In this document: piece by piece, positions 2,993-28,782 of the stretch
Layout of the letters: each line of letters starts with the position of its first letter
Numbering within the stretch: the first letter of the stretch is position 1
Position numbers and translations under genes: made by a program
IMG/VR virus record: IMGVR_UViG_3300030330_005091
Coordinates: 64,001-128,000 of that record
DNA: 64,000 bases
Strand: one strand, 5' to 3'
From: a virus
Lineage: Duplodnaviria; Caudoviricetes
Notes under the pieces: generated by a model
Seen by the model: only the letters and a program-made list of their open reading frames with translations
Told to the model about the DNA's origin: nothing
Databases searched by the model: none

Positions 2993-3580
2993 TTAATTTT
3001 CATCGACCACATTTTCGGCAATATCTTCGGCATACTTTACTTTTCTTGCTCTAATTTTTACTTTTGGATATTGACTAGACAAGGCTTCTACAGCATCAAC
3101 ATTCTTACCAGAGTCATCAAAAAATAAAACATCGGTTGCTCCGTTTTCAATTCTATTAGCGACCCAATCAGCTTTAGCTTGGGGGTCAGATGTAGCTAAC
3201 AATTCAAATGTAATCTTGGAGGTGTCTAAACCTATACTCTCAAGATAATCTCTAATTGCTCCTTCAGCAGCAGGGTCTCTTGCAGTCAATATCGCAATTT
3301 CTCGACCCTCAATGCCTGCATTTAAAGCATTGCGGATTATATTGGTAATTTGTTTGATTTCTCTCGGGTTTATAACTTCATCAAATTCAGAAAAATCATA
3401 TACGTAATTTGGATTAATTTTGTGAGTTGCGTATTCTCCAGGTGTCATTTCTATTTTCTCACCTGTATCTAACGTAATGTGAATATTTGAATCTGACTTT
3501 GCAATTGTATCATCAAAATCAAAAACGCGAAGTTTTGATTCGTTTAAATATTCTCGCCAATTTTCAAGTAGGAGTTTCAT
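2993..3580 (-). CDS. HAD-superfamily phosphatase with MKLLLENWREYLNE leader
   Basis: FDFDDT motif I, ILTAR motif II, K motif III, FFDDS motif IV. Confidence 0.8.
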   Translation of the reverse strand: MKLLLENWREYLNESKLRVFDFDDTIAKSDSNIHITLDTGEKIEMTPGEYATHKINPNYVYDFSEFDEVINPREIKQITNIIRNALNAGIEGREIAILTARDPAAEGAIRDYLESIGLDTSKITFELLATSDPQAKADWVANRIENGATDVLFFDDSGKNVDAVEALSSQYPKVKIRARKVKYAEDIAENVVDEN

Positions 3581-4043
3581 CGTCTTTTCCAATATTTGAG
3601 CGTTCTTGCCAGTCTGCAGAAACAGAATCCTCTTCTATTGGCCCGCCTTTTGCCCATGTTCGACAAGCTCTAGCAGAGTGACATTTAAAGTGATGCATCC
3701 AACAATACCCTAATATGCCATCTTCGTCAGATGTTTCACCAGGCATACATTCTAACATCCTTGGTGAAATGTCAAATGCCACACAATTACCGCAAACAGA
3801 TTTTTTTGCAGCTTCTTCGGTTGTGTTCCAATACTCCGCAATATTTTTCCAATAATCGGCCGGCTCTGTAACATTTAATGGTCCGTATTGAATATGTTCA
3901 GCATGGATCGCTGAGTCTCTGTTTTTGGTGTTTAGTTTCAAATCTTGAGTGGCTGGTGGGCATATTAGTCCCTTTGTTTTTTTAATAAGTATTTTTATAT
4001 CTTCATTTAAATACTTTCGCCAATTTTCAAGTAAAAGTTTCAT
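3543..4043 (-). repeat. 38-bp direct repeat (3543-3580 and 4006-4043) encoding MKLLLENWRxYLN
   Basis: 34/38 identical by manual comparison. Confidence 0.85.
3564..4043 (-). CDS. Cys-rich protein with MKLLLENWRKYLNE leader
   Basis: CGNC...C...YCWMHHFKCHSARAC..W. Confidence 0.7.
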   Translation of the reverse strand: MKLLLENWRKYLNEDIKILIKKTKGLICPPATQDLKLNTKNRDSAIHAEHIQYGPLNVTEPADYWKNIAEYWNTTEEAAKKSVCGNCVAFDISPRMLECMPGETSDEDGILGYCWMHHFKCHSARACRTWAKGGPIEEDSVSADWQERSNIGKDDETPT

Positions 4044-4279
4044 TTTATTTCTTCTACAGTTTTTTCCATGTGGTCATCAAAATCAGTTCTAATCCATACC
4101 ATTGAATTAAATTGTGCTCTTTTTCTTTCTAAAACCAAAGAGCCTTGAGGTTTTACAAGTGTTCCATCAACTTCGACACCTTCAAAATCGATTTCTGTTT
4201 TTTGTTTGTAAATAACTTTTGGTTCTTCTTCGGGTTCGTTTGCAAGAGCAATACCCAAGATTAAAAATAATAAATGCAT
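4040..4279 (-). CDS. cglF: CglF/GltF-like (adventurous gliding motility) secreted protein homologue
   Basis: signal peptide + KTEIDFEGVEVDGTLVKPQG...RK...F.SMVWIRTDF, resembling the recalled myxobacterial CglF pattern (KTxIDF..xIEGxLxKPxG...LIxxRxxF). Confidence 0.7.
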   Translation of the reverse strand: MHLLFLILGIALANEPEEEPKVIYKQKTEIDFEGVEVDGTLVKPQGSLVLERKRAQFNSMVWIRTDFDDHMEKTVEEIK

Positions 4280-4307: not shown

Positions 4308-4898
4308 TTACAATAAACTATCAATTACAGAGCGAACATAAGCTTCATCAAAACCAACAGCACCGCTATAAATTTTTAATTCTTTGTCAATAAACACATA
4401 TGTTGGAAATCCACCAACAAGATACCCAGTTTCCCCCGTTTGATCCATAACACTTCTGTCGGCATACAAAACGGGCGCTGTAGTGATCCCATGACTACTA
4501 ACCCATTCTAAAATTTCTGTCTCTGTGGGTGGTTCTCCTGTGGCACCATCAACCAAAACAGTTACAAACTGTAATTTGTTACCATAGTCGTTTTGAATGC
4601 CCTGAGTATATTGACCTGCCCACTGACATGGACCACACCAGACAGTTGAAAAATCAAGAACTATAACTTTACCTTCTTGTTTATATAATTGCCATACGTT
4701 CATGTTTTGATCGTAAAAAATCATATTACAAACAGATGAACCAATTGTTTTTTGATCACAGTCGGGTGTATCAATAATTCCAAATTCCGTTGGGACCTCT
4801 TCTGCAGTCGCTGGACCCGAATCTAATGGTTGTGTTTCTAATTTTGCTGGATTGCAAGAATTAAGCATTATTAAAGATGCTAATAATATATTTTTCAT
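4308..4898 (-). CDS. TlpA/redoxin-family thioredoxin-like lipoprotein
   Basis: GKVIVLDFSTVWCGPC, GFPTYVFID; N-terminal lipobox-like LNSC. Confidence 0.85.
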   Translation of the reverse strand: MKNILLASLIMLNSCNPAKLETQPLDSGPATAEEVPTEFGIIDTPDCDQKTIGSSVCNMIFYDQNMNVWQLYKQEGKVIVLDFSTVWCGPCQWAGQYTQGIQNDYGNKLQFVTVLVDGATGEPPTETEILEWVSSHGITTAPVLYADRSVMDQTGETGYLVGGFPTYVFIDKELKIYSGAVGFDEAYVRSVIDSLL

Positions 4899-4913: not shown

Positions 4914-6029
4914 TTATTGGTGAGGTAATATTTTGGCGGGTGCAATGCATTCCCAATCATCACCACTGTCTCCACTGCTTGAGTCAATGTTTGCTTGGGA
5001 CCAAGTTTCCCCATCATCAGTGCTATAAAATATACGACCTCTTAAATTGCAAACCACCCAGTTCCCAATTCCATCAGTCGCAACATCACCCACTGCACCC
5101 CCTATTGAATTTGAACCCCAGGTATCTGTGGTAAGTGTCCAAGATGTACCATTAGTGGAGCGTAGCATTTTGCCTCCCGCAACAACAATGTAAACACCAT
5201 TTCCTGCTGCTGCACCTATTTCTACATTTCCAACTTCGTCAGAAGAAACACTCCAGGTGTTTAAATCTGTAGACGTTGCAGCAAACCCGCCACCACCTGC
5301 TGGAGGGCTGACTTCTGAATATGCTATCAACCACCTGCTTCGATGATAAACTACTGCTTTTATAGTTCTACCGTCATTAAAATCTTTTGCTAAAGTCCAA
5401 GTATTTCCATCATCGACAGATTTATAAAGGCGATCTCTTTGTCCAAATACCCAAGTCGATACACCATCACACGCTATAGAAATAATATCGCTTGTCGATA
5501 TATCAGTAAGACTACTAATATCAACAGCACTGAAATTAATACCGTCCGTCGAAACCTGGAGATATTTCCAGCTTTGACCGCCTTCTCCTTGCATTTTTCC
5601 GCACAAAATCCACTTTCCAGTTCTAGAATTAAAAGCACCGCCGCGCAAACCATCAGAACTCGCAGCATTAATAACAGTCCAGTCTCCACTATTGGTTGGA
5701 GGATCAGCAGTAGAAGAAGCTATGATTTCTTCTGAATTATCATCTGTACACATCAACCAGGTTCGATTGCCATCAGAATTTCTGCCATATACTACCCACC
5801 TTATTCTTTCGCCTCCATCAGTCGGACCTGAATAACTTGTCCAATTAGAATTCCAATCATTTCCTTGGGCGTATGCAATTGTTGTAGAGCGAGAACCAGC
5901 TAGCCATGCACTGGATGAAATGGGTGGTCTATTATTAGCATTAATGCTTTCTACCAAATCAATTGGAGTTCCGTTAACGAACGCTATACTACTAGCGCTA
6001 ATTTCTGAAACAGTATCAAAATCTGGCAT
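4914..6029 (-). CDS. BNR/Asp-box beta-propeller virion (receptor-binding-like) protein
   Basis: repeated S-x-D-x-G-x-x-W (SVDDGNTW, STNGTSW, STDDGETW). Confidence 0.7.
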   Translation of the reverse strand: MPDFDTVSEISASSIAFVNGTPIDLVESINANNRPPISSSAWLAGSRSTTIAYAQGNDWNSNWTSYSGPTDGGERIRWVVYGRNSDGNRTWLMCTDDNSEEIIASSTADPPTNSGDWTVINAASSDGLRGGAFNSRTGKWILCGKMQGEGGQSWKYLQVSTDGINFSAVDISSLTDISTSDIISIACDGVSTWVFGQRDRLYKSVDDGNTWTLAKDFNDGRTIKAVVYHRSRWLIAYSEVSPPAGGGGFAATSTDLNTWSVSSDEVGNVEIGAAAGNGVYIVVAGGKMLRSTNGTSWTLTTDTWGSNSIGGAVGDVATDGIGNWVVCNLRGRIFYSTDDGETWSQANIDSSSGDSGDDWECIAPAKILPHQ

Positions 6030-8092
6030 TAGACCACCACCAAATAATCAGGACTTGGGTTAAAATATATAACATTCCCAGTCGTTGTACATGTTCCGAC
6101 AACACGAACTGATTGTCCACTACCAGAAGGTCTAATAGTAGTCAATTGTCCACTGCCTGAAAGATATACAGTGGCGCCTGTTGTGAAACCACCTACAAGT
6201 TGTGTATTGTAATCAAAAAATCCACGAATCAACATACCATCAACAGATGGTGAGGTTCCGAGCGCTGTTGCTAACATTCCTAAGCCACCAGACGCAGGAA
6301 CAGAAATATCAACTTCATCCCAATTTCCATTGCTGTGTAGGTAATAAGTTTTTCCCTGAATCGTTGTGCCGGCGCCAAATTTAACAACTTCACCGCCACC
6401 AGTATCGTTTGCTAATATTGTAGGGTTATGGTGAACATCAAGAGCAGTTTTAGGATCTAAATTAAGAATTCCAACTGCACCTGAGCCTTTTACTTCCAAA
6501 AGAGAGCCGTGGAGATCAGACTTAGCTGATATAAGCGTTTCAGTACCAGAGCCAGTGACATTTATTAATCCTCCAAAATGAGCACCGCCTACAGTAATGG
6601 CACCAGAACCAGAAACACCTAACGCAATACGACCACCACTAGCATCAGTTCCTTGCATGAGTGCTAAAATTTTATTGTTGGTGTCGGATGGTCTAATTGC
6701 TAGCATACCATCCTGTGGACCGCTACCTGCCCGATCGCCAATTGCTATAGATGGATTAGCCCCGGTAACATGAATACCAACAGAACTGGTGATTCTTTGT
6801 GCACTGACATCACCAGTTACTGATAGCACTGAGCTATCAAATGTTAGATTCGACTCACCTTGAACAGTTGAAGTATCAACAGATGTTATAATTCTAGTAG
6901 CACCTGCACTGTTGTAATTTGTAATGGGACCTGCGCTAATTCCATTCAAATTAGAACCATCGCCATAAAATGCAGATGCAGAAATATTAACACTAGCACT
7001 AATATCTCCTGTGACTGATAATGCATGATCAGGTGCAATTGTATCACTTCCTATTCTAGTGTCGGGGGTGAAAAACAACTTATTATCGTCATTATCAAAT
7101 CGAATTGCATTGGTACCACCCGATTTTCGTACTCTAAATGCGTTTACATCTTCAGGTACATTAAAGTAAACTCTGCTACCTACGCCGGCACCGCCATCAA
7201 CTGTTAATACTCCTGATACTATAAGTTCTGTTCCATCAAATGTAAGGTTAGATTCACCTTGTACGCTTGTGGTATCAACAGATGTAATAATGCGGGTGGC
7301 GCCAGTCTCGCCGTATGCTGTAATAGCAGCCGAAGGTAGCCCAGTTAATGAAGAACCGTCTCCAAAAAATTTACCATAAACTTGCGAGGCTGAAACAAAC
7401 ACAGATGCTGATAAGCTAGCTCCAAAAAACGCAGATGCAGAAACGTGTGACGAAGCAGTTAGCTCATTAGTTCTAATTAATGAAGCTGTTAATTGGTTGT
7501 CAGCATAAACTTTTCCAGTTGATTCCACTCTAAAAACTTGTGAGTCGGAATTATTTCTTACCTCAAATTTTGTGTCTCCAGCATCATCACCTAGACGAAT
7601 TCTAACAGCTTTATCCACTTCATCGTTTCTAATATACAAGTTTCCACCAGTAGCTTTAATTTGTGGATTTCCAGACGTTGTATTATTTAAGGATAATTTA
7701 CCATCCCCACCTTGTATAACTGATCCTGAAATTCCTAGAGAAGCAGAAATTTGTCCGGTGGCAGATAATTTAGAACCATCAAATGTAAGGTTAGATTCAC
7801 CCTGAACAGTGGTAGAATTAACTGAAGTGATAATTCTATTGTTGCTTGAGCTATTGTACGTGGTGATTGCCGCCGATGGAAGCCCAGTTAGCCCAGAACC
7901 ATCACCATGAAAAGAGGAAGCTGAAACCGGACCAGAGGCTGATACATGGTTGTTGTTTATCTCTAAACGATATGTTCCTCCGGTTTTTAACTTTATGCTA
8001 TCATCGTCAAAATCAATTTGAGTTTCATTCGGATCTCCCTCATATTGAATATCACCAGTATGTTGTGGACCTTTTTGATTGTTATATGCCAT
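6029..8092 (-). CDS. tail/head fibre-like protein with internal repeats
   Basis: 3x FxGDGSxLxG...RIITSVxxxxVQGESNLTFD; Gly/Ser/Thr-rich. Confidence 0.75.
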   Translation of the reverse strand: MAYNNQKGPQHTGDIQYEGDPNETQIDFDDDSIKLKTGGTYRLEINNNHVSASGPVSASSFHGDGSGLTGLPSAAITTYNSSSNNRIITSVNSTTVQGESNLTFDGSKLSATGQISASLGISGSVIQGGDGKLSLNNTTSGNPQIKATGGNLYIRNDEVDKAVRIRLGDDAGDTKFEVRNNSDSQVFRVESTGKVYADNQLTASLIRTNELTASSHVSASAFFGASLSASVFVSASQVYGKFFGDGSSLTGLPSAAITAYGETGATRIITSVDTTSVQGESNLTFDGTELIVSGVLTVDGGAGVGSRVYFNVPEDVNAFRVRKSGGTNAIRFDNDDNKLFFTPDTRIGSDTIAPDHALSVTGDISASVNISASAFYGDGSNLNGISAGPITNYNSAGATRIITSVDTSTVQGESNLTFDSSVLSVTGDVSAQRITSSVGIHVTGANPSIAIGDRAGSGPQDGMLAIRPSDTNNKILALMQGTDASGGRIALGVSGSGAITVGGAHFGGLINVTGSGTETLISAKSDLHGSLLEVKGSGAVGILNLDPKTALDVHHNPTILANDTGGGEVVKFGAGTTIQGKTYYLHSNGNWDEVDISVPASGGLGMLATALGTSPSVDGMLIRGFFDYNTQLVGGFTTGATVYLSGSGQLTTIRPSGSGQSVRVVGTCTTTGNVIYFNPSPDYLVVV

Positions 8093-8107: not shown

Positions 8108-8452
8108 TTATTTATATTTTTTGACTAACCCCTCAGACAACAAAGTGTTATTTACGTGGATCTCGCCATATTCTCCAATAAGTAGTACCCCAAGACATCT
8201 TCCATACTTACCGATCCCTTCAGACATTAAAATAAAATTACCATTTACTGTGTATAGAAGCTCTTGCAAGCGAGCTTTGGCGGCAAGTCCTTGGTTTTTC
8301 TCGTGCAAGTTTTTTGTACGTGTTTCAGGGGCATTAATGCCGTATAAACGAATTCTTTTTTTAACCCATATATCAAAACCTAAATCAATCATGGCATCAA
8401 CTGTGTCGCCATCAATAACTTCTATTAGTTTTGCATTGTATTCATTTTTCAT
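8108..8452 (-). CDS. thermonuclease (SNase-like)
   Basis: VIDGDT, IRLYGINAPE, GKYGRCL; ATGA-coupled start at 8452. Confidence 0.9.
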   Translation of the reverse strand: MKNEYNAKLIEVIDGDTVDAMIDLGFDIWVKKRIRLYGINAPETRTKNLHEKNQGLAAKARLQELLYTVNGNFILMSEGIGKYGRCLGVLLIGEYGEIHVNNTLLSEGLVKKYK

Positions 8453-19925: not shown

Positions 19926-20263
19926 AGAAATATGTGCTTGACAGCGAGAGAGTGTATAGGTATAAAGTCTGTATAAAAATATCACACACAACCATCACAC
20001 TCAAACAAACATAAAGTCTAACTAACGCATATCCACCCCACAATATCCCACCTTAAACCACCATAACCCACAATACACAACTTTAATCATTGAGATATGA
20101 GATACAAACAAACACAGTAAACATCAGATAAACAAATACACTTAACATAAACTAACTCCTATTACGAATAAGATAATCAATAACCACTACTGATACGGTT
20201 GTACCTGTAATATAACCAATAATAAACATTTGCATAAGTATATTCTTTTGTTGTAGTCTCGGC

Positions 20264-21091
20264 CTATTTCTTCTTGGGGCGAGCCTTCATGATGAAACGC
20301 TCCTCAACCATCAGAGTGGTCGCCTTGCCTACAGGCAGCAGCTTGTAAACCTTGGCACCGCGAGCGGCAGATGTGACAGGCTTGGCATCAGTCTCGATAA
20401 CCATAAGTGTTACATTGCGCTTAAGGTAAGCCCCGTCAAGATACCGAACACCGGAAGGAGCGTTTGCGCGAAAAGTGACGAGCGAGCCCGCTGGATACTT
20501 GGCAGGCGCGTGGTGTGAAGCGAGCACCTTTTGTGCATACTTGTTTTTAACCATCTTATTATATTGTGAATAAGTTGGAATAAAAGTATCGTTGCCAATA
20601 ATCTCACGGGCTGTATCTTTGAAGTAACCCGTGGTCATATAATAGTTGGCAACCACGATAGCATCAGCACGGAGATCAGGATTATTTGTATAACTCTCGA
20701 CCCACTTCTGACGCTCGGCCAGTGCAGCATCATCATGCTCTGCTTCGATCTTGCGTAGAATCTCAAGCTGACGATCTGACAGGCGGCGATCACCTTTGAC
20801 TTGACTGGTCAGGCTCTCAACAAAGCCAGCAGCCCAGCTTGAAGGCTCGCAGCGCATGCTGAGAAGATCCAAGCGCATCAAGAACGTCTTGTGCTTCTCG
20901 GTAGCAGCCAACAACTTCTCAGGGGAATAGCGATCCTCCAGTGTAGCAACCCACTTGACACGACCAGCGGACAAGCGACCTTTGCGCTCATAGTAGGACA
21001 GAAGCGATTGAGCAAAGTCCTTATCACGCGCTGAGATAGCGGGATTGTTGATCAGAACTTCAAGGCGGGTGCGGTAGGTTGGACGAGCCAC
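20264..21091 (-). CDS. hypothetical early protein with C-terminal SH3-like domain
   Basis: two F..SL..Q....LS..Q repeats; KYPAGSLV. Confidence 0.7.
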   Translation of the reverse strand: MARPTYRTRLEVLINNPAISARDKDFAQSLLSYYERKGRLSAGRVKWVATLEDRYSPEKLLAATEKHKTFLMRLDLLSMRCEPSSWAAGFVESLTSQVKGDRRLSDRQLEILRKIEAEHDDAALAERQKWVESYTNNPDLRADAIVVANYYMTTGYFKDTAREIIGNDTFIPTYSQYNKMVKNKYAQKVLASHHAPAKYPAGSLVTFRANAPSGVRYLDGAYLKRNVTLMVIETDAKPVTSAARGAKVYKLLPVGKATTLMVEERFIMKARPKKK

Positions 21092-21120
21092 GTGTAATAC
21101 TCCTTGCTGATTACTCTATA

Positions 21121-21174
21121 AATATAGCATAGGGGAGTGAAAAGGTCAAGGTTTAAGTTGTCAAGGGAATGTTA
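21121..21174 (-). promoter_or_regulatory. TGACA-box promoter cassette
   Basis: TAACA-N6-TGACA-N9-TTGACC-N17-TATATT. Confidence 0.85.
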
Positions 21175-21474
21175 AGAGTTGTTTTCTTTCTCTCTACTCT
21201 CCGCATCCAACTCTGCAAGGTCTTTAGCAACGTCAGCAAGGGTCATTTTACGGGTTTTACGCAATTTGTTCTGGGCTCGTTGCAGCTTGCCCCAGCGCCG
21301 TGAGTTAGCAGGGTGCTTACAGATGTGCAGGTTCTCAATGCCGATGGCTGTAAGGCGTCTGAGGCTGTTCTGAGTGGCTTTAAGGGTGTCGGGCTTAGTC
21401 AACACGCGCTCGCTGCCTGAGAGCCTTCCAGCCTCGTTAATCTCAACGTCTGTTTTACTGATATAATACTTCAT
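21172..21474 (-). CDS. hypothetical protein
   Basis: SD AGGAG; stop inside cassette box. Confidence 0.65.
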   Translation of the reverse strand: MKYYISKTDVEINEAGRLSGSERVLTKPDTLKATQNSLRRLTAIGIENLHICKHPANSRRWGKLQRAQNKLRKTRKMTLADVAKDLAELDAESREKENNS

Positions 21475-21486
21475 GATCTCGGCTCC

Positions 21487-22740
21487 TTAGCAGTCGATTG
21501 CGATAACACGTTCATTGGTTTGGAAGTAGGGGCGAGCAGCGTGGACCTTGGTAGTCATCCACATACGTTGGCACTTGGATGCGATAGGCTTCGGAGCGCA
21601 AAGGTCAGTCAAGACAATGTGACCGTCAAAGTCGCCATCATTGACGAACTTGGTCGGCGCGTTGAAGCAAGTGCCGCCAGTCAACACGCGCTCGGTTTTC
21701 TTGGTTTGACCTTTCTTCCAAGTATATACCTTGTCAACGGCTACCTCGGTGTCGAATGGTACAACCGTGAACTCGGCAATCTCGGCCAGCTTGTTCAACT
21801 CGGAGAAGAACGCGGCGAGCATGCCATCATCAACCGATCCAGACTGGTCGATGGAGATAGCGATCTTGGCTTGACGACGCACGCGCTTGCCAGGGTGGAT
21901 CTTTGGGAACCGCTTGTTCAGGCGTCGAGGGGTCGAACGCTTGTCAGCACGTTGTGAGGTCTTGACGAAGTAACGAAGAACTTTGCGCCAATCAACCTTG
22001 GTCGCAACGCGGTCCATAATATCTTGACGCATACCAGACGAGACTGAGCCCCAGTTACGTGCCTTCTCAGCTTCCTCGGCAGCTTGCTTTACAGCTTCCT
22101 TCAATCGCTCTTTAGCAATCTCTTGAGTGGTGCTATCGCCATCACCGAACTGATCGTGACTGTCAAGTGAATCCATGCCACCGAAGGGATCACCATCGCC
22201 TTCACCGGGCTCGCCTTGACCATCGCCGTTGCTGTCTTGGTTCTCGGCCATATCTTTCAAGGCTTCGAGATACCATTCGTAGGTCTTGTTAGCAGGCAAG
22301 TGAGCAAACGGGCCTTCGCCGGGAAATACACCCTTCATGCCTTGACCATCGGCCATGATTGGGCCGGGGTCAGCTTCACACGGCAGCTTACCAGCCATTT
22401 CAGGCAGGCCGTTGATGGCAAGGTCCATCGCAATGTTGTCGATACGCTTGAGGCCATCGGCAGGCTTGCGGCCAGTCACGTGCTCGAAGATGATGTGATA
22501 GAACTCATGCATGAGGACACCAAGCTGATGCTCAGGCTTGAGAGCACCCATGAACTCAGGGTTATAAAGCAACTCGAACTGAGCGGTGTCGGGGTTGACA
22601 CGGACGCCAGCGGTCGGAAGGCTGGTAGTCGCGGTCTTGTCAATGCGACGAGACAGAGCGGCAAAGAACGGCTCGCGCATAAGCAGGCGAGCAGTGTGCA
22701 TGTTGAGATTGAAGGGCTTGATGGTCTTGTCGTCGGACAT
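21487..22740 (-). CDS. DUF2201-type metallopeptidase + VWA domain protein
   Basis: HEFYH, NIAMDLAIN, IDQSGS MIDAS, GGTCF, LTD; SD before ATG 22740. Confidence 0.85.
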   Translation of the reverse strand: MSDDKTIKPFNLNMHTARLLMREPFFAALSRRIDKTATTSLPTAGVRVNPDTAQFELLYNPEFMGALKPEHQLGVLMHEFYHIIFEHVTGRKPADGLKRIDNIAMDLAINGLPEMAGKLPCEADPGPIMADGQGMKGVFPGEGPFAHLPANKTYEWYLEALKDMAENQDSNGDGQGEPGEGDGDPFGGMDSLDSHDQFGDGDSTTQEIAKERLKEAVKQAAEEAEKARNWGSVSSGMRQDIMDRVATKVDWRKVLRYFVKTSQRADKRSTPRRLNKRFPKIHPGKRVRRQAKIAISIDQSGSVDDGMLAAFFSELNKLAEIAEFTVVPFDTEVAVDKVYTWKKGQTKKTERVLTGGTCFNAPTKFVNDGDFDGHIVLTDLCAPKPIASKCQRMWMTTKVHAARPYFQTNERVIAIDC

Positions 22741-22763
22741 GAATCTCTCCTGATTACCTATAT

Positions 22764-22817
22764 AATATAGCACGGGATGAGTGAAAAAGCAAGGGTTAAG
22801 TTGTCAAGGAAATGTCA
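22764..22817 (-). promoter_or_regulatory. TGACA-box promoter cassette
   Basis: TGACA-N6-TGACA-N9-TTGCTT-N17-TATATT. Confidence 0.85.
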
Positions 22818-23021
22818 GGAGATGGGAACACTAAAGGCAGCGTTGATCACTGTGTCGGCATACCATTGGGCACCGTCAGAACTGCCGTCAAATAGCCTGT
22901 AATGGCGTCTGTTGGCGTCAAGCTGTCCCCACTCCTTCTTGTAACTCTCACGCACTTCAACGACCAGACAGGGGCACTTATCGTGCTCCCTGATTAATAG
23001 GTCGCCTACCTTGAACTTCAA
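22815..23021 (-). CDS. small SH3/KOW-like (VGDL) protein
   Basis: FKVGDLLIR. Confidence 0.6.
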   Translation of the reverse strand: MKFKVGDLLIREHDKCPCLVVEVRESYKKEWGQLDANRRHYRLFDGSSDGAQWYADTVINAAFSVPIS

Positions 23022-24100
23022 GAGTTACCGCCAAGGATCTCAACAAGGTGGTCAGAGACACGGCGACCATCGGACGCCTCGGCCTTGTGGAGTGCCACAA
23101 CATTGTCAATGTTGTCGGTGTCACCGAGAACGGTCCACAACTTCATGGCGACCTCGGAAGGCAGGGTTACGAAGTAGTTGGCGAGGTTAGTGACCTGAGC
23201 CTCGGTCAGAGTCTCAGAGAACACATCAGATGCCTCGAACTTCTCAATCATGGCAGCGTGGTCATTGATACCCCACTGCTCGGTCTTCTCGATTTCACCG
23301 TTGTCAAGAATGTCAGCGATGGTCACTTGCCATTCGTACTTCTCAACGAAATCGCGGAGAGCGACAGCAGCCTCGAACCCGACGAAGGCAGTCGCGAGGT
23401 TGAACAGAAGGTCACGGTCGCCTTCCTCACCGAATACGCCGGTTGAAACTGCGGTATCGTTGAACCGCTTCCAGCTACGACGTGACGGGTAAACCTTGTT
23501 AGGCTCGAAGTCACCGCGATGCTCAAGGTGCATGCGGTTTTGGTTGATGAAGTCCCAGAGGATGCCATCAGTGCGGTCGGTCGCCCACTTCAACCAATCC
23601 TCATCGGAAGGCTCGACATCGAACACGGTCCAGCGGTCCAACTCGGCAGGGTCCATTTCGCCAACTTGGTATTGAGCACCGTGCTCGCCACCGTTGACAG
23701 CGGCAACGATCAGGGTGTCAGGGTGCAGACGCCAGCCGTTCAGCTTGCGGCTGTCGGTCAACTCGAAAAGACCCTGACGGACTTCCACAGTCGCACGATC
23801 AACCTCATCGAGGAACAGCATCACGGGCTGCTCACACGCGGTCACAAGCCAGTCAGGGGCGTTCCACGTGGTAGCCTTGCGGCCATTGATCTCGGTGTCT
23901 GCCGTGTCAGGCAGACCGAGAAGATCACCTTCGGTCATCTGGCTGGCACGACGCTCGACCACTGGAAGGTCGCGAGCAGCGGCGATCTGGTAGACCACCT
24001 CGGACTTGCCGACACCGTGACGACCGCGCAGAAGCACGGGCAGCTTGTTGTCGAGGATGTGAGGAGCGACGGTAGTGAATGTTGCGAAGTCGATAGCCAT
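23018..24100 (-). CDS. MoxR-like AAA+ ATPase
   Basis: GRHGVGKS Walker A, LFLDE Walker B, AAVN sensor, DPAELDRW Arg finger. Confidence 0.9.
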   Translation of the reverse strand: MAIDFATFTTVAPHILDNKLPVLLRGRHGVGKSEVVYQIAAARDLPVVERRASQMTEGDLLGLPDTADTEINGRKATTWNAPDWLVTACEQPVMLFLDEVDRATVEVRQGLFELTDSRKLNGWRLHPDTLIVAAVNGGEHGAQYQVGEMDPAELDRWTVFDVEPSDEDWLKWATDRTDGILWDFINQNRMHLEHRGDFEPNKVYPSRRSWKRFNDTAVSTGVFGEEGDRDLLFNLATAFVGFEAAVALRDFVEKYEWQVTIADILDNGEIEKTEQWGINDHAAMIEKFEASDVFSETLTEAQVTNLANYFVTLPSEVAMKLWTVLGDTDNIDNVVALHKAEASDGRRVSDHLVEILGGNS

Positions 24101-24147
24101 GATATGTTCTCCGTGGGAGGGGTTGTGTTCTTTGTTCTTACTCTATA

Positions 24148-24213
24148 AATATAGCATCATCAGAGTAAAAGGTCAAGGTTTATTTTGTCAAGTAAATGTC
24201 AAGGGATTTGTCA
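24148..24213 (-). promoter_or_regulatory. TGACA-box promoter cassette (three boxes)
   Basis: TGACA x3-N9-TTGACC-N17-TATATT. Confidence 0.85.
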
Positions 24214-24690
24214 AGTCGCTGGCTCAAGGTCGCGGGTCGGATAGGTCGGCCAGCCCCACCGTGGTTGAGCCTCACCCGTCCATGCGATGCGAGCATAGTC
24301 GCCAGCGTTGGCTTCCATCACAAGACCGACGCGACCAGCATAGCCCTGACGCATGGCCCGCTTGTTCTGTTTGCCTCGCACCAGTGAGCCAACGGGATAC
24401 TTAGGCGGCGATGGTAACAGGCTCTCACAGACCTGCGTGATGTTATCACGGAACGAGCCAGCGTGATAGTCGGTCATCAGATCAGAGTGGTCATTGACAC
24501 CGCGAACATGGAAGTTGTGCGCGTCGGCATCCATTTGTTCGTCATCAGGGCCACAGCCGTTGGCCAAGAACGAACCAACATAGCCGTTGTGCTGAAATGA
24601 CCAGCGGTGACCTACGAGTTTTACCTCAATGTCGATGCCTTGTTTCTTGAAGTGTGATTTGACTTTCTTGATTGCGTTGCGAACTTTCAT
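24211..24690 (-). CDS. hypothetical protein with C-terminal SH3/KOW-like domain
   Basis: KYPVGSLV...VGLV...ARIAW...DLE. Confidence 0.7.
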   Translation of the reverse strand: MKVRNAIKKVKSHFKKQGIDIEVKLVGHRWSFQHNGYVGSFLANGCGPDDEQMDADAHNFHVRGVNDHSDLMTDYHAGSFRDNITQVCESLLPSPPKYPVGSLVRGKQNKRAMRQGYAGRVGLVMEANAGDYARIAWTGEAQPRWGWPTYPTRDLEPAT

Positions 24691-24716
24691 GTAGTGCTCT
24701 CCTTGATTACTTATAT

Positions 24717-24770
24717 AATATACCACGTGCGGACGAAGATTGCAAGGGCAATCTTGTCAGGGAAATGTCA
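24717..24770 (-). promoter_or_regulatory. TGACA-box promoter cassette
   Basis: TGACA-N6-TGACA-N9-TTGCAA-N17-TATATT. Confidence 0.85.
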
Positions 24771-25646
24771 AAGGTCCAAACTTCTTCGGGCTTCGATGAA
24801 ATGGTTAGTACCATAGCGGCTCGATTCTTGATTGAACTTCGTAACATTCTCGGCATCGCGGAAGTCCCAATCACGGGCTTTGCCTGATGGATAGTATTGA
24901 TTGAAGTTTAGATCGTCAGCTTGAAGCCATCCAGCGGGCGGTTCAATCTTACCAGCAAGGGTGATCTCATTTTTATGAACCATGCCATTGACACTATGTG
25001 TGCTCTCAGTCGTCACCGCGTAGTGATCGCGAGGCGTAAGCCCTTCATTCAACGTGGCAGCATCTTGAAAACCGTATATACTTTCACTGTTTCGATGGTT
25101 AGGTGCAACCACTTGCCAGTTGAAGCTGGTCAGCATCATAGGACGCTCACGCGATCCCCACTGTTGGTTCTCGCCCCAGTATCCATAGCGCGTCATGATG
25201 GCCATAGAACCAATGCCAGCGCCCACATTGCGCATTTCCTCAAGGCGTTGGGCCCTGACCATCTGAGCGGCCTTGATGAATACGCGCCGATCTTCTTTGA
25301 GGATAGAACACGTGCGCCGAGTGTGACCCCGATCTCCACAATATGAGCATGTAACGGTTCTCATGCGGTCGGCTTTCGCGGCCGCCTTCTGCTCTTTCGT
25401 CATGACAATAGAAGCGCCCGTGTCAGGGTCACAGCGCGTGCGCTTGGTATATTGGCGTGCGTAAGATTCCATTTGCGTGCGGTAACCAGCAGCACCATTG
25501 TCATCGCCGTTAGCTTCGCATATTGCAAGGTTTTGTTTAGCAGTCTTATAGCGCTTGCGAAGGCGCAGATTCAACTCAGGGCAAGAGCGTTTGTTGTGGC
25601 CAGTTTGGTAGCAGTAAGAGCAGCGGACGGTTCCATTATATGACAT
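24768..25646 (-). CDS. protein with two CCHC zinc knuckles
   Basis: CSYCYQTGHNKRSC and CSYCGDRGHTRRTC. Confidence 0.8.
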   Translation of the reverse strand: MSYNGTVRCSYCYQTGHNKRSCPELNLRLRKRYKTAKQNLAICEANGDDNGAAGYRTQMESYARQYTKRTRCDPDTGASIVMTKEQKAAAKADRMRTVTCSYCGDRGHTRRTCSILKEDRRVFIKAAQMVRAQRLEEMRNVGAGIGSMAIMTRYGYWGENQQWGSRERPMMLTSFNWQVVAPNHRNSESIYGFQDAATLNEGLTPRDHYAVTTESTHSVNGMVHKNEITLAGKIEPPAGWLQADDLNFNQYYPSGKARDWDFRDAENVTKFNQESSRYGTNHFIEARRSLDL

Positions 25647-25670
25647 GTAGTTCTCCTTGATTACTTATAT

Positions 25671-25724
25671 AATATAGCACAGGCGAGAGGGGTTCGCAAG
25701 GGGTTCTTTGTCAAGAAGATGTCA
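25671..25724 (-). promoter_or_regulatory. TGACA-box promoter cassette
   Basis: TGACA-N6-TGACA-N9-TTGCGA-N17-TATATT. Confidence 0.85.
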
Positions 25725-25914
25725 AGGCACCATCAACAAGTGAAAGGTGTTGGCTCGCTTCGGTTTCTGGCTGTGTCTTGTCATTCCACAAAACTTTAAC
25801 ATCGCGGTTGCCAGTGTATTTACCAGTCTCGACAATCAGACCAACGTGGACAGATAGACCCTTTTGCCATCGTGTTCGTTGAAAGTAGTATGTCACCAGA
25901 TCACCGACTTGCAT
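25711..25914 (-). CDS. MxVGDLV array member
   Basis: MQVGDLVTY; GGAGGT SD; 14-nt overlap with upstream gene. Confidence 0.75.
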   Translation of the reverse strand: MQVGDLVTYYFQRTRWQKGLSVHVGLIVETGKYTGNRDVKVLWNDKTQPETEASQHLSLVDGALTSS

Positions 25915-26089
25915 TAACGACCTCCACGCGATGAGCCTCAATCCAACTTGTTCGCCCGTCATTCCATGTTACAACAGGATGGTTCGAGCGTTGAGTGTTA
26001 TCAGGCCATCTTGTATCTGTCCAATCAATAATAACCCCAAGCATACCGCTTTCTGACCAAAGGTTTCTCACCAGATCACCGACTTTCAT
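25901..26089 (-). CDS. MxVGDLV array member
   Basis: MKVGDLV...VEVVNASR. Confidence 0.8.
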   Translation of the reverse strand: MKVGDLVRNLWSESGMLGVIIDWTDTRWPDNTQRSNHPVVTWNDGRTSWIEAHRVEVVNASR

Positions 26090-26113
26090 GTGATTTCTCC
26101 TTTCTATACATAT

Positions 26114-26167
26114 AATATAGCATCGGCTGGGGCGGTTGTCAATGGCTCAAATGTCAGGGAAATGTTA
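26114..26167 (-). promoter_or_regulatory. TGACA-box promoter cassette
   Basis: TAACA-N6-TGACA-N9-TTGACA-N17-TATATT. Confidence 0.85.
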
Positions 26168-26521
26168 AGCCTTGCCTTTGTGGTTTGCATTTCCAGCGTT
26201 GTAAGCCACGTGGCGCATTGGTCGGTTTCCAATAGTTGTGTTAGAACCTGACAAATGACAAGACTTGCCCTTGTGGAAACCAGTCACAGCCTTCCAAGCC
26301 TTAGAATACGACTCGCGATCTTCGTTGGACTCGAACGCAACGATTGAGATACCAGCGGCCTTACCATCACCAGCGGACAGCCCCAGATACTTAACAGCAG
26401 TCTCGGTGCCAAGTTCCTCAACGCAGTCAGGACACTCGTTGATCTTACCGCCGGCTTGCTTCTTGGCGGTCGAGTCAAGATCAAAAGAGATTCCACAATG
26501 TTTACATTCTTTGGTGTTCAT
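26165..26521 (-). CDS. zinc-ribbon protein
   Basis: CKHC...CPDC. Confidence 0.7.
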   Translation of the reverse strand: MNTKECKHCGISFDLDSTAKKQAGGKINECPDCVEELGTETAVKYLGLSAGDGKAAGISIVAFESNEDRESYSKAWKAVTGFHKGKSCHLSGSNTTIGNRPMRHVAYNAGNANHKGKA

Positions 26522-26527
26522 TTCTAC

Positions 26528-26884
26528 CTACCAGTCAATGGGGTCGTTAGCAACAGGGTTTGCAGTGCCGCGCATTAGTCTCTGTTCCACAGTCTCGGCG
26601 TCCTCGACTTGAAACTCACCGAAGCGCACGCCGCGGCGCTCTGCCGCACGGCTGGATGCCTTCTGCATCTCGCGAGCACGGATGCCAGCGTCAACGAAAG
26701 CAGCCTCGGCAATCTCGGTAGGCTCCCACTCATCAACCACGTCACCTGATTGTTCCATCAAATCATGGCAAAGTTCAATAGCAGGCTGACCATCGGCATC
26801 CGTGCGTGTGCCAGCCTCGTGAAGAAGATCGAGAATCAAATCAAGTTCGCGCTGGGTAACTCGAATGTTTAGAATGTCAGACAT
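26528..26884 (-). CDS. hypothetical protein
   Basis: SD AGGAG behind cassette. Confidence 0.7.
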   Translation of the reverse strand: MSDILNIRVTQRELDLILDLLHEAGTRTDADGQPAIELCHDLMEQSGDVVDEWEPTEIAEAAFVDAGIRAREMQKASSRAAERRGVRFGEFQVEDAETVEQRLMRGTANPVANDPIDW

Positions 26885-26906
26885 GTTTGCTCCTTGTTAT
26901 GTATAT

Positions 26907-26960
26907 AATATAGCCCATAACTTGGCTGTTGTCAATGGTTAAAATGTAAAGAGAATGTCA
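26907..26960 (-). promoter_or_regulatory. TGACA-box promoter cassette
   Basis: TGACA-N6-TTACA-N9-TTGACA-N17-TATATT. Confidence 0.8.
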
Positions 26961-27101
26961 AGCCCGCTATACATGAATCGCTGTTCTCGCCGCGTCTTTC
27001 ACTCGCCAGCCACCTTTCAACTCCCCAAAGGGTATGGGTTCATGGGTGACATTGAACCCGTTACTCTGTATAGTTTATAGATAGCCGACTTGACATTCTC
27101 T
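26950..27101 (-). repeat. 152-bp non-coding element bounded by 21-bp inverted repeats (candidate ncRNA)
   Basis: agagaatgtcaagcccgctat (26950-26970) vs revcomp of 27081-27101, 19/21; internal GGGTTCA/TGAACCC hairpin. Confidence 0.6.
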
Positions 27102-27108
27102 AGTAAAA

Positions 27109-27483
27109 TCAATAGGTTGCGGACCTTTCGATGTGAATATCAAAGCCCCAGCCTTCAACTTCGTTGTCGTCCATTTCCTCACCGATGCGAACGAAGCGGT
27201 AATATTCATCTGCGTTGACTTCCTTGCCGTCAACTTGAATCTGTTCAGACTGACACCACTCGATGAAGTCTTGAATAGCAGCAACTTCTTCAAAGCTGTC
27301 GTACCACTTGATGTGACTCCAGCGAAACAAGAACGCGCCCTCGATGTCGCAGTAGTCCTTGATCATTGTGTCAGCTTCCCCGAAACACATCTTGCGAGCC
27401 TCGGGAGACTTTGCCATAGTGACCATAAACTGTGGCATAACTTCAGGACCAACAGCCAAAATAACTTCTGAACGATAACCCAT
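27109..27483 (-). CDS. conserved phage hypothetical protein
   Basis: MGYRSEV...KWY...RFVRIGEE..D motif. Confidence 0.75.
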   Translation of the reverse strand: MGYRSEVILAVGPEVMPQFMVTMAKSPEARKMCFGEADTMIKDYCDIEGAFLFRWSHIKWYDSFEEVAAIQDFIEWCQSEQIQVDGKEVNADEYYRFVRIGEEMDDNEVEGWGFDIHIERSATY

Positions 27484-27485
27484 CT

Positions 27486-27677
27486 CTACGCCTCCGCTGC
27501 GTTGTGGAGTGCTGCGGCTGCGATGATGAGCGCATCAGTCAACTCGGGGTTCTTCTCTTGTGCAATCTGTCCAGTGATCATCATCATTGTGATTGATACC
27601 TCAAGGTTTGAGCGGTTCTCTTCCATCGGCGTCAGCTTCGGGAAAGTGTTGATAAGGTTGATGGGCTTCAAGTTCAT
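27486..27677 (-). CDS. hypothetical protein
   Basis: SD AGGAGA behind cassette. Confidence 0.65.
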   Translation of the reverse strand: MNLKPINLINTFPKLTPMEENRSNLEVSITMMMITGQIAQEKNPELTDALIIAAAALHNAAEA

Positions 27678-27698
27678 TTCGTTTCTCCTTATGCTTAT

Positions 27699-27752
27699 AA
27701 TATAGCATCGTGGGAGGGGTTCGTCAAGGATTAAGTTGTCAAGAGAATGTCA
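27699..27752 (-). promoter_or_regulatory. TGACA-box promoter cassette
   Basis: TGACA-N6-TGACA-N9-TTGACG-N17-TATATT. Confidence 0.85.
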
Positions 27753-27935
27753 GGTGATTTGTTTGAGGTAGCGGCTGCTCATAACTTCGCGCTTGCCACT
27801 ACCAACCCACTCGACAATCCACCACTCTCCAAGGCGGGATGACTTCGGGACTGCGATGACGATGCCGACAGGACGCCGACCCTCGCCATAAGTTCTTTCT
27901 ACCAACATTCCGGGTGTAAGTTGAGTCATGGTCAC
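27750..27935 (-). CDS. small SH3/KOW-like protein
   Basis: LTPGMLV...GIVI...WIVEW...YL. Confidence 0.7.
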   Translation of the reverse strand: MTMTQLTPGMLVERTYGEGRRPVGIVIAVPKSSRLGEWWIVEWVGSGKREVMSSRYLKQIT

Positions 27936-28264
27936 GCTGCGATCTCCATATGCATCATATCAAGTTGATAGCCATAGTTATTACTCCATGTAAGTTCTGA
28001 CCAGCTTTGAAAGATCGACCACAACTCGTCGCGCTTCATATCTCTCATTTTGGCTTGATCCCATTCATATGGTTCAGCCTGTTCGCCGTCAGTCTCGCGA
28101 TATGCGTTGTGGTTGTTCATAGCACTCAAGGCGGTTTCCTCATCCTCGACACCAAGAAACTCAAGCACATCAGCGATACACGCCAGCGCACAACCCTTTT
28201 CAGTCAGATGAACTGAAGAAAACAAATCGCCTTCGTGGATACCTTGCATCACCCAAACTTTCAT
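27932..28264 (-). CDS. hypothetical protein
   Basis: ATGA-coupled, GAGGT SD. Confidence 0.65.
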   Translation of the reverse strand: MKVWVMQGIHEGDLFSSVHLTEKGCALACIADVLEFLGVEDEETALSAMNNHNAYRETDGEQAEPYEWDQAKMRDMKRDELWSIFQSWSELTWSNNYGYQLDMMHMEIAA

Positions 28265-28410
28265 GCTATCACCTCAAAGTGAGTTTTATCAGCCCACATC
28301 TTATAGTTTGTTTTTTGGTTAATGATTAACACGCTCTCTGCAATCTCATCAAGAGCGAGCCACACTGAATCGTTAAACCTGTTTCTAAGCAAACACCCTA
28401 CCTCAATCAT
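28261..28410 (-). CDS. small SH3-like protein (49 aa, not in ORF track)
   Basis: MIEVGCLL...HFEVIA; coupled on both sides. Confidence 0.6.
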   Translation of the reverse strand: MIEVGCLLRNRFNDSVWLALDEIAESVLIINQKTNYKMWADKTHFEVIA

Positions 28411-28757
28411 TATGCACTCTCCCGCTTTGCACGCGAATCTTCAATCATCTTCTCAATCCAGTGCCCACCAAACTCTGCTGCATACTCGTTGCGGAGCACC
28501 AGCAGCTTCTCACCGTCTTTAGTTTCGTTCTTCAGCTTGTAGCCGGGGATCACAAACTCCGTGCCGATAGGGGCACCCAGGAAGCACTCACACACAGCGT
28601 AGGGCACCGACTTCCATCGGCTTTTAGTCTCGCCAGTTGCCTTGTCCTTCCAGCTACGACGGAAGCGCCGAAACTGCATATCGACAACGCGGGCTTGAAT
28701 GTTCGCGCCCGATGCGGATGGGATGATTACGAGGTCGTCTTTTGTGAGATAGGCCAT
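28410..28757 (-). CDS. hypothetical protein (SH3-like N-terminus)
   Basis: LTKDDLVII; AGGAGG SD. Confidence 0.7.
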   Translation of the reverse strand: MAYLTKDDLVIIPSASGANIQARVVDMQFRRFRRSWKDKATGETKSRWKSVPYAVCECFLGAPIGTEFVIPGYKLKNETKDGEKLLVLRNEYAAEFGGHWIEKMIEDSRAKRESA

Positions 28758-28782
28758 TGTGGTCCTCCTTGATTACCTATAT

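What the first reader, a model, noticed from the sequence alone, without database searches (positions are those of the whole stretch)
4040..4279. Phage-encoded homologue of the myxobacterial gliding-motility protein CglF/GltF
Seen: signal peptide + KTEIDFEGVEVDGTLVKPQGSLVLERKRAQFNSMVWIRTDF. Known (recalled, not searched): CglF/GltF is a small periplasmic component of the Agl-Glt gliding machinery of Myxococcota/Bdellovibrionota. Inference: this points to a predatory deltaproteobacterial-type host. It suggests the phage manipulates gliding or blocks a Glt-associated receptor (superinfection exclusion), an unusual class of auxiliary gene.
Basis: partly seen in the sequence, partly recalled or inferred. 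Interest (0 to 1): 0.75.

Follow-up and report, generated by a model that had tools for sequence, protein, structure and literature searches.

The report
Phage copy of GltF envelope-machine linker
A 196-kb uncultured marine T4-type phage carries a well-preserved, exported copy of GltF, the small periplasmic linker of the myxobacterial Glt/Nfs-type envelope machine; this points to aquatic Myxococcota as hosts and suggests the phage puts its own part into that machine.

Summary
Window 4040-4279 (minus strand) is a real 79-aa gene with a type I signal peptide.

- **Family match:** it matches NCBIfam NF033764 (CglF) at E 1.4e-13 over nearly the whole profile. The score is 50.7 bits, below the 90-bit equivalog cut-off.
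- **Cut-off is narrow:** only 3 of 201 sampled genomes of the phylum pass it.
- **Cellular relatives:** the closest ones (47-71% identity, aquatic Myxococcota MAGs) all sit as the F gene of barrel-gltC-D-E-F-G-H clusters.
- **Which paralogue:** the phage and aquatic type is closer to the second (Nfs-like) class than to the gliding CglF of Myxococcus-type genomes. "Glt/Nfs-type linker" is therefore the safe name.
- **Phage identity:** the record has major head, portal, large terminase and baseplate genes. It has no other glt gene and no TonB-like partner domain.
- **Conservation:** about 25 related viral contigs and several more distant T4-type lineages also carry a lone copy. Purifying selection is strong (dN/dS about 0.11) and the gene has phage-like base composition.
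- **Contact elements:** both elements that a published model assigns to GltG and GltC binding are retained.

The effect on the host (supply or jamming) is untested, and the host is inferred. I found no paper reporting viral glt genes. This scan has noted the same gene on other DNA, in at least 39 genomes.

The parts
4040..4279 (-). gltF-like gene (79 aa plus stop): an exported Glt/Nfs-type periplasmic linker homologue
   Evidence: ORF. NF033764 E 1.4e-13, 50.7 bits. 47-71% identity to syntenic cellular GltF. dN/dS 0.11.
4241..4279 (-). signal peptide, residues 1-13, ending A-L-A before N-E
   Evidence: Read directly from the sequence. A11 and A13 align with the conserved A-x-A of cellular copies. 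AF2 predicts a helix at residues 3-11.
4142..4210 (-). residues 24-46, the Y-K-x-K-T-E-I-D-F-E-G...G-x-L-V-K-P-Q-G core; the inferred equivalent of the GltF strand modelled to pair with the GltG TonB-like C-terminal domain
   Evidence: Y24, T28-F32, G39, K43 and P44 are invariant in phage and close cellular copies. The mapping to M. xanthus residues 94-111 (PMC11761067) is made by anchoring at the C-terminus and is an inference.
4043..4087 (-). residues 65-79, the C-terminal helix; the inferred equivalent of the GltF helix modelled to sit in the GltC crevice
   Evidence: AF2 predicts a helix at residues 68-78, in the most confident blocks of the model (pLDDT 84-86). F67 is conserved throughout; E70, M71 and S74 are conserved in the family, but the window copy has H70 and T74.
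3564..4043 (-). downstream Cys-rich 159-aa gene whose ATG overlaps the gltF stop (ATGA), so the two are probably translationally coupled
   Evidence: No family match.
4308..4898 (-). upstream neighbour: a thioredoxin-fold lipoprotein (lipobox L-N-S-C, W-C-G-P-C motif), 28 nt from gltF; a second envelope-directed accessory gene
   Evidence: Pfam Thioredoxin_2 and Thioredoxin, NCBIfam ResA-like. Among the viral loci it is present only in L039.
8109..8116 (-). TATAAATA, a T4-type late-promoter-like motif 17 nt upstream of the first gene (6029-8092) of the same-strand block that includes gltF
   Evidence: 8 matches in the window against 3.9 expected, so this is weak. No convincing terminator between it and gltF.

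Best explanation
The gene encodes a host-derived auxiliary protein. It is a roughly 66-residue, mostly unfolded periplasmic peptide (after signal-peptide cleavage) that copies the F subunit of the Glt/Nfs-type envelope-spanning machine of aquatic Myxococcota.

Shown here: it is homologous to GltF, it is carried by a phage, it is the only glt gene in that phage, it is under purifying selection, and the family's conserved core and C-terminal helix are retained.

Inferred: in the infected cell it docks onto host partners as GltF is modelled to do. Its strand would pair with the TonB-like C-terminal domain of GltG, and its C-terminal helix would sit in the crevice of GltC. That would place it as the link between the inner-membrane motor side and the outer-membrane platform.

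My committed reading is that it works as a functional linker. It would replace or top up the host's own small and probably short-lived F subunit once host gene expression falls. The machine would then stay coupled, or be re-tuned, during infection.
For: - Family match and full-length alignment.
- All 36 close cellular relatives lie in gltC-D-E-F-G-H order. GltC, GltE, GltG and CglE/GltH were confirmed by NCBIfam, and a myxobacterial beta-barrel gene lies upstream.
- The phage has hallmark structural genes and no other Glt protein, TonB_C or myxo_SS_tail domain, so any partner must come from the host.
- Both predicted contact elements are kept. Overall constraint is stronger in phage copies than in cellular ones (dN/dS 0.11 against 0.28; columns).
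- The C-terminal helix of the marine phage clade carries the D-F-D-D-E-M state of the marine G001/G002 family, not the D-F-N-A-E-M state of freshwater clades. That fits adaptation to one host's partners.
- The candidate hosts encode GltC and GltG.
- AF2 gives an extended chain with only a C-terminal helix, as published for GltF.
- In P0162 a GltF-like module lies directly before an AgmX/PglI TonB-like domain, a natural fusion that supports that contact.
- gltF is required for gliding and for GltD cluster localisation in M. xanthus (PMC3169522).
Against: - No binding, expression or phenotype data exist. The GltF contacts themselves are AlphaFold predictions without biochemistry.
- A lytic phage's benefit from keeping this machine running is not obvious.
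- The window subclade has changed residues that are at least 85-100% conserved in close cellular copies: E40T, P59S, L60M, I61V, L63I, E70H and S74T. That could mean altered function and not a faithful replacement.
- The host is unproven. There is a large GC gap (phage 39%, cellular loci 56-70%).
- The host machine may not be a gliding machine at all.
Confidence: 0.45

Rival explanations
1. The protein is a poison subunit or superinfection-exclusion factor. Made in excess, or in altered form, the phage linker would occupy GltC and the TonB-like domain of GltG separately. This would uncouple the outer-membrane platform from the proton-driven motor. The result could be to stop an energy-consuming machine, or to block later phages that need an energised Glt outer-membrane complex for irreversible adsorption, as T1 and phi80 need TonB.
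For: - The phage carries only the bridging subunit of a machine with eight or more parts.
- A bridge in excess saturates both partners (inference).
- Position 40 is Glu in 45 of 46 close cellular copies but a non-acidic residue in 28 of 34 viral copies. The window subclade has also rewritten F-N-P-L-I-K-L-R to F-N-S-M-V-W-I-R.
- The gene sits in a variable accessory block next to another envelope-directed protein.
- Small exported phage proteins commonly serve exclusion or lysis control (established knowledge for T4 Imm/Sp and T5 Llp).
Against: - Position 40 is variable across the wider family (E 44, T 29, Q 9, V 8 of 119). An above-cut-off CglF has Asp there, so the change need not be disabling.
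- Phage subclade B keeps F-N-P-M-I-K-L-R.
- Both interfaces are conserved and evolution is slow, with none of the rapid change expected of an arms-race inhibitor.
- No evidence exists that any phage uses Glt components as a receptor.
Confidence: 0.3
2. The protein acts on a different partner. The GltF-like module would be a general ligand for AgmX/PglI-type TonB-like domains. The phage protein would then target another host envelope protein that carries such a domain, or a VWA-type surface protein system, and not the Glt/Nfs machine itself.
For: GltF-like modules occur inside VWA ('marine sortase target'-like) and MuiA-like proteins. Candidate hosts have several proteins with the GltJ/GltG-type C-terminal domain. 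Many genomes of the phylum have 2-3 paralogues.
Against: The nearest cellular relatives, at 47-71% identity, are all the F gene of glt-type clusters. The fused forms are much more distant, scoring 32-42 bits on NF033764.
Confidence: 0.15
3. The gene is a neutral passenger, a recently picked-up host gene with no role in infection.
For: It lies in a region where the neighbouring genes vary between related phages.
Against: It is retained in about 25 related contigs and in more distant T4-type phages. dN/dS is 0.11 with saturated dS. GC3 is 0.19 against 0.6-0.85 in cells, which shows long residence in phage genomes.
Confidence: 0.03

Closest known systems
GltF = CglF of Myxococcus xanthus (MXAN_4868; NCBIfam NF033764)
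   Same: Small exported protein with a type I signal peptide. Same conserved core (Y-K-x-K-T-x-x-D-F-E ... G-x-L-x-K-P) and a C-terminal helix ending S-V-x-E-[LIV]. Mostly disordered in models. Alignable without gaps over 61 residues (34% identity, E 2e-12) to an above-cut-off CglF (PMC3169522, PMC11761067).
   Different: Scores 50.7 bits against a 90-bit cut-off. Has F-N-S-M-V-W-I-R where above-cut-off CglF proteins have R-H-S-S-L-I-R-I-R. Encoded alone in a phage, not within gltD-E-F-G-H-I-J. No evidence of a role in gliding.
F subunits of barrel-gltC-D-E-F-G-H clusters of aquatic Myxococcota MAGs, including the marine family of G001/G002 (records labelled Myxococcota bacterium XB_MAG53 and Deltaproteobacteria bacterium UBA2957)
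   Same: 47-71% identity and the same length and layout. The marine family shares the E-E-E-P-K-V, G-V-E-V-D-G and D-F-D-D-E-M states with the marine phage clade.
   Different: Cellular copies are GC-rich (GC3 0.6-0.85) and always sit inside the cluster. Glu40, Pro59 and Ile61 are nearly invariant in them but are changed in the window copy.
Second (Nfs-like) paralogue class of the F subunit in genomes with two glt-type clusters (for example G022, locus L103)
   Same: Best-scoring Myxococcus-type relative of the phage protein (45% identity, 65 bits, against 35-43% and 47-55 bits for CglF proper). Shares the F-[ND]-[PS]-L-I-x-L-R signature and the A/B-to-H cluster layout with no GltI-like gene following.
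   Different: That this cluster is Nfs (spore-coat assembly) could not be confirmed. The contig ends after the G gene and no Nfs models were available.
Host-derived auxiliary genes of T4-type phages that replace labile host components (for example cyanophage psbA)
   Same: A single subunit of a multi-protein host machine, captured by a large lytic phage, ameliorated in composition, under purifying selection and widespread in marine viromes. The psbA comparison rests on established knowledge; the rest is.
   Different: This is a structural linker of an envelope motility-type machine, not a metabolic or photosynthetic enzyme. I found no such case in the literature.

Membership tests
CglF/GltF equivalog (NCBIfam NF033764) | Whole-protein score at or above the curated cut-off of 90 bits | tested here: not met
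   50.7 bits and 49.4 bits in the genome search. Only 3 of 201 genomes of the phylum pass, and syntenic F genes of aquatic MAGs score 54-58 bits.
CglF/GltF equivalog (NCBIfam NF033764) | Significant, near full-length alignment to the profile | tested here: met
   E 1.4e-13, profile positions 15-88 of 88, protein residues 11-78.
CglF/GltF equivalog (NCBIfam NF033764) | Sequence signature of above-cut-off members (R-H-[KS]-S-L-I-[KR]-I-R-[DE]-N-F) | tested here: not met
   The window copy has F-N-S-M-V-W-I-R-T-D-F and its close relatives have F-N-P-[LM]-I-K-L-R-T-D-F.
CglF/GltF equivalog (NCBIfam NF033764) | Small exported protein with a type I signal peptide and no lipobox | tested here: met
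   Sequence inspection and alignment of the A-x-A site. CglF has a type I signal sequence (PMC3325183; PMC3169522). No dedicated signal-peptide predictor was available.
CglF/GltF equivalog (NCBIfam NF033764) | Gene lies within a gltD-E-F-G-H cluster | tested here: not met
   The phage genome has no other Glt protein. The feature is met for all 36 close cellular relatives.
CglF/GltF equivalog (NCBIfam NF033764) | Required for gliding and localises to focal adhesion clusters | not testable with these tools
   Known only for M. xanthus (PMC3169522).
Broader Glt/Nfs-type F-subunit family | Conserved core and C-terminal helix, with the nearest cellular relatives being the F gene of barrel-C-D-E-F-G-H clusters | tested here: met
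   AF2 predicts a helix at residues 68-78 and an extended chain elsewhere.
Broader Glt/Nfs-type F-subunit family | Binds GltC through the C-terminal helix and the GltG TonB-like domain through a strand | not testable with these tools
   This rests only on a published AlphaFold multimer model. No multimer prediction was available here. The P0162 fusion gives indirect support.
Phage auxiliary (host-derived) gene | Lies inside a real phage genome between phage genes, has cellular homologues, and is under purifying selection | tested here: met
Known superinfection-exclusion proteins (T4 Imm/Sp, T5 Llp, Cor) | Sequence or family similarity | tested here: not met
   No PHROG or Pfam family matches the protein. 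The functional analogy remains untested.

The most novel reading that the evidence does not exclude
Large aquatic T4-type phages take over the coupling point of a TonB-like, proton-driven envelope machine of uncultured Myxococcota by exporting their own version of its smallest linker. They would use it to uncouple the outer-membrane platform from the motor. This would be a new kind of superinfection exclusion or motility shut-off aimed at a bacterial focal-adhesion-type machine. It would also be a natural probe for how GltF links GltC to GltG.
Probability: 0.3. Interest if true: 0.75.

Novelty: new variant of a known kind. Interest (0 to 1): 0.55.

Why it matters
- **New type of auxiliary gene.** Phage auxiliary genes are mostly enzymes. 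A captured structural linker of an envelope-spanning motility-type machine would be a different sort of host take-over. I found no report of it in the literature, including a 2026 survey of 790 myxophages.
- **Host marker.** The gene is a culture-free marker that ties a widespread group of large marine and freshwater T4-type phages to uncultured, small-genome aquatic Myxococcota.
- **Test of the GltF model.** GltF's proposed role as the GltC-GltG bridge is so far only a prediction. The many natural phage variants (including the changes at position 40 and in the 59-63 segment) are ready-made material for binding and complementation tests.

Tried and rejected
The contexts of metagenome proteins P0001-P0120 could not be read. 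I used viral contigs and genome-contig loci instead.
- **Host inference from other phage genes failed.**
  - The GroEL scan found no close cellular relative.
  - The thioredoxin-like lipoprotein gave only a 25% match in an Omnitrophota MAG.
  - The dehydrogenase matched a 44%-GC contig of a Pelagibacteraceae single-cell genome at 65%. That contig shares no other gene with the phage, so I rejected it as a host signal.
- **Capsid and terminase kinship gave only distant cultured phages** (34-47% identity) on hosts from three phyla, so it says nothing about the host.
- **I first read the tree as showing several independent captures**. The AU test does not reject a single viral clade (p 0.55), so I dropped that claim. 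A second constrained test did not finish in time.
- **I considered the Glu40 replacement to be a convergent viral signature.** The column is variable in the wider family, so I downgraded it to a lead.
- **Other negative results.**
  - A profile search of the PDB found no solved relative.
  - No fold search was run because the model is largely unfolded (pTM 0.22).
  - Public records give the relatives no names.
  - Pathak and Wall 2012 (PMC3318471) is not held in the library.

Full report
**1. Observation.**
The ORF is at exactly 4040-4279 on the minus strand. The N-terminus is a short hydrophobic segment ending A-L-A before N-E. In an alignment with cellular relatives this coincides with their A-x-A / Q-D-E cleavage site, and there is no lipobox cysteine. 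The mature product would be an acidic, soluble periplasmic peptide of about 66 residues. The stop codon overlaps the ATG of the next gene (ATGA).

**2. What the window is.**
- The window is bases 64001-128000 of a 195,690-bp IMG/VR virus record that CheckV rates as complete.
- The record has 236 ORFs, 220 of them on one strand, and 39% GC.
- It encodes a major head protein, portal, large terminase, baseplate wedge, ribonucleotide reductase and DnaB helicase.
- It carries eight tRNAs.
- The nearest cultured phages are distant T4-type myoviruses at only 34-47% identity: Flavobacterium immuto, Microcystis Mel-JY01 and Rhodothermus RM378.

So this is a real, large, uncultured T4-type phage, and its virion genes say nothing about the host.

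**3. Identity of the protein.**
Pfam and PHROGs have no match. NCBIfam NF033764 (adventurous gliding motility protein CglF) matches at E 1.4e-13 and 50.7 bits over profile positions 15-88 of 88, below the 90-bit equivalog cut-off. That cut-off is very narrow:
- In 201 genomes sampled from the phylum of the closest cellular relative, 151 have the family but only 3 pass the cut-off.
- F genes that sit in glt clusters of aquatic MAGs score 54-58 bits.

A pairwise alignment with an above-cut-off CglF is gap-free over 61 residues to the C-terminus (34% identity, E 2e-12).

**4. Cellular relatives and their context.**
A scan of one genome per species found 37 cellular loci at 28-63% identity by that scan. 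Re-scored, the marine G001/G002 family reaches 65-71%. All are MAGs labelled Myxococcota, Deltaproteobacteria or (wrongly) other taxa.
- In L013 the neighbours are GltC, a 1066-aa TPR protein in the GltD position, GltE, the F gene, GltG and CglE/GltH by NCBIfam.
- tblastn with these proteins shows the same C-D-E-F-G(-H) order in all 36 close loci.
- A myxobacterial beta-barrel gene lies upstream of gltC.
- The five genomes with the most similar copies (3.5-4.2 Mb, one GTDB family) all encode GltC and a GltG-type protein.

**5. Gliding GltF or a sister class?**
In genome G022, which has an above-cut-off CglF, there are two barrel-C-D-E-F-G clusters.
- The cluster with the true CglF continues into a giant TPR protein in the GltI position.
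- The second cluster carries an F subunit that is the better match to the aquatic and phage type. It is 56% identical to the aquatic L013 copy, against 38% for the true CglF. For the phage protein it gives 45% identity and 65 bits, against 35-43% and 47-55 bits for the four CglF-type (high-scoring) F proteins.
- Those four high-scoring CglF-type proteins share R-H-S-S-L-I-R-I-R-E-N-F. The phage, aquatic and second-paralogue copies have F-[ND]-[PS]-x-I-x-L-R.
- The aquatic clusters have no GltI-like gene after H.

I therefore file the protein in the Glt/Nfs-type F-subunit family and not as the gliding equivalog. Whether the host machine drives gliding is open. I tested the point here and it changed my wording.

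**6. Distribution in viruses.**
- Thirty-three IMG/VR contigs carry a relative. About 25 of them (64-89% identity, 37-41% GC) share a syntenic block with this phage, while the immediate neighbours of gltF vary.
- More distant viral contigs (33-57% GC) also carry a lone copy. L066 is another T4-type phage, with a topoisomerase II large subunit and a tail fibre.
- No viral locus, and not this phage genome, has any other glt gene. The phage has no TonB_C or AgmX/PglI-type domain.
- The unconstrained tree separates a main marine phage clade and places three GC-rich viral copies inside a freshwater cellular clade. The AU test does not reject one clade for all viral copies (p 0.55). One ancient capture or several cannot be told apart with 79 residues.
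- More than 120 clusters at 90% identity from marine metagenomes are at least 67% identical to the window copy. None of the ten close-relative clusters looked up, nor any listed hit, carries a functional name.

**7. Selection and composition.**
Median dN/dS is 0.11 among phage copies, with dS about 1 and many pairs saturated. Among cellular copies it is 0.28. The window gene has GC3 of 0.19 against 0.6-0.85 in cells. The gene has therefore been in phage genomes for a long time and is kept by selection.

**8. Anatomy against the published model.**
In M. xanthus, gltF is needed for gliding and for GltD cluster formation, and GltF-mCherry sits at focal adhesion clusters (PMC3169522). CglF has a type I signal sequence and is thought to be associated with the outer membrane and transferable between cells (PMC3325183). 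An AlphaFold-based model describes GltF as largely disordered. In that model a strand (residues 94-111) pairs with the TonB-like C-terminal domain of GltG, and a C-terminal helix (133-147) sits in a crevice of GltC, so GltF bridges the outer-membrane platform to the periplasmic and inner-membrane part (PMC11761067).
- Anchoring at the C-terminus, these elements correspond to phage residues about 26-43 and 65-79. This mapping is an inference.
- The first element contains the family's most conserved residues, which are identical in phage and cellular copies.
- The second is the only confident secondary structure, besides the signal peptide, in the AF2 model (helix 68-78; mean pLDDT 75.5, pTM 0.22).
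- Natural fusions place a GltF-like module directly before an AgmX/PglI TonB-like domain (P0162) and inside VWA-type proteins. This supports the GltG-type contact independently.

**9. Phage-specific changes.**
The window subclade differs from close cellular copies at positions that are 85-100% conserved in them: E40T, P59S, L60M, I61V, L63I, E70H and S74T, plus K62W at a position that is Lys in 72% of them. Position 40 is non-acidic in 28 of 34 viral copies. In the wider family, however, that column is variable, and a true CglF has Asp there. I treat this as a lead and not as evidence of disabled function.

**10. Host.**
The evidence is gene kinship only.
- The marine phage clade is most similar to the marine G001/G002 family and shares its E-E-E-P-K-V, G-V-E-V-D-G and D-F-D-D-E-M states.
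- The Bacteriovoracales copy is only 28-33% identical.
- The GC gap (39% against 56-70%) is large. The tRNA set (Ile-TAT, Arg-TCT, Lys-TTT, Leu-TAA, Thr-TGT, Met and two Asn-GTT) includes five that read A-ending codons. This fits a low-GC phage in a GC-rich host, but the set is also typical of T4-type phages, so it is weak support.
- Other phage genes gave no host signal.

I put about 0.7 on an aquatic Myxococcota host with a glt-type cluster.

**11. Mechanism and verdict.**
The most economical reading is that the exported peptide docks on host GltC and GltG. Both interfaces are kept under strong constraint, and the helix tracks the marine host family. I therefore lean towards a working replacement or supplement of the host linker (0.45) over a jamming or exclusion role (0.30), action on another TonB-like partner (0.15), or a neutral passenger (0.03).

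Expression may be late. A TATAAATA motif lies 17 nt before the first gene of the same-strand block, and no convincing terminator lies in between. This is weak evidence.

No paper that I could find reports viral glt genes. This scan has noted the same gene on other DNA, with 58 notes in at least 39 genomes.

Noticed in passing
window 3564-4043 and 2993-3592 (minus strand): Two adjacent, otherwise unrelated genes begin with nearly the same leader, M-K-L-L-L-E-N-W-R-[KE]-Y-L-N-E. One is a Cys-rich 159-aa protein and the other a HAD/polynucleotide-kinase-phosphatase-like 199-aa protein. Earlier notes of this scan flag it as a possible targeting tag.
   Followed up: no
window 4308-4898 (minus strand): A thioredoxin-fold protein with a lipoprotein signal (L-N-S-C) and a W-C-G-P-C active site lies directly upstream of gltF. 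It is a second envelope-directed accessory gene. Among related viral loci it is found only in L039 (35% identity).
   Followed up: partly
L005, L010, L011, L017, L030 (genome contigs): MAG records titled Klebsiella pneumoniae, Enterobacteriaceae or Enterobacterales carry glt genes in the same order as the Myxococcota MAGs (complete gltC-D-E-F-G(-H) clusters in L005, L011, L017 and L030; only gltF-gltG on the 3-kb contig L010) at 60-70% GC. Their GltF genes group with those of Myxococcota MAGs. The organism labels are almost certainly wrong.
   Followed up: partly
P0162, P0215, P0269, P0199 (protein representatives): A GltF-like module occurs as an internal domain of large VWA ('marine sortase target'-like) and MuiA-like proteins. 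In P0162 it is followed directly by an AgmX/PglI TonB-like C-terminal domain.
   Followed up: partly
window 56454-57554 (minus strand); L102; L002 6084-6929: The phage 'dehydrogenase' (phrog_9582) is 65% identical to a gene on a 44%-GC, 7-kb contig binned with a Pelagibacteraceae single-cell genome. It is 41% identical to a gene about 5 kb from gltF in L002, and 12 other cellular glt loci also hold a homologue. The SAG contig shares nothing else with the phage.
   Followed up: partly
window 20001-32000: A GC-rich island (47-52% GC, against 35-40% in the flanks) holds HNH endonuclease and AAA ATPase genes. It overlaps the mini-gene and promoter cassette arrays described in earlier notes.
   Followed up: no
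residue 40 of the GltF alignment (window 4160-4162): Glu in 45 of 46 close cellular copies, but T, S, Q, M, V, A, L or I in 28 of 34 viral copies. The column is variable in the wider family, so the meaning is unclear.
   Followed up: partly
window 50548-52125 (minus strand): A phage-encoded GroEL (phrog_5725, E 6e-139) has no close cellular relative detectable by the pattern-based genome scan.
   Followed up: partly
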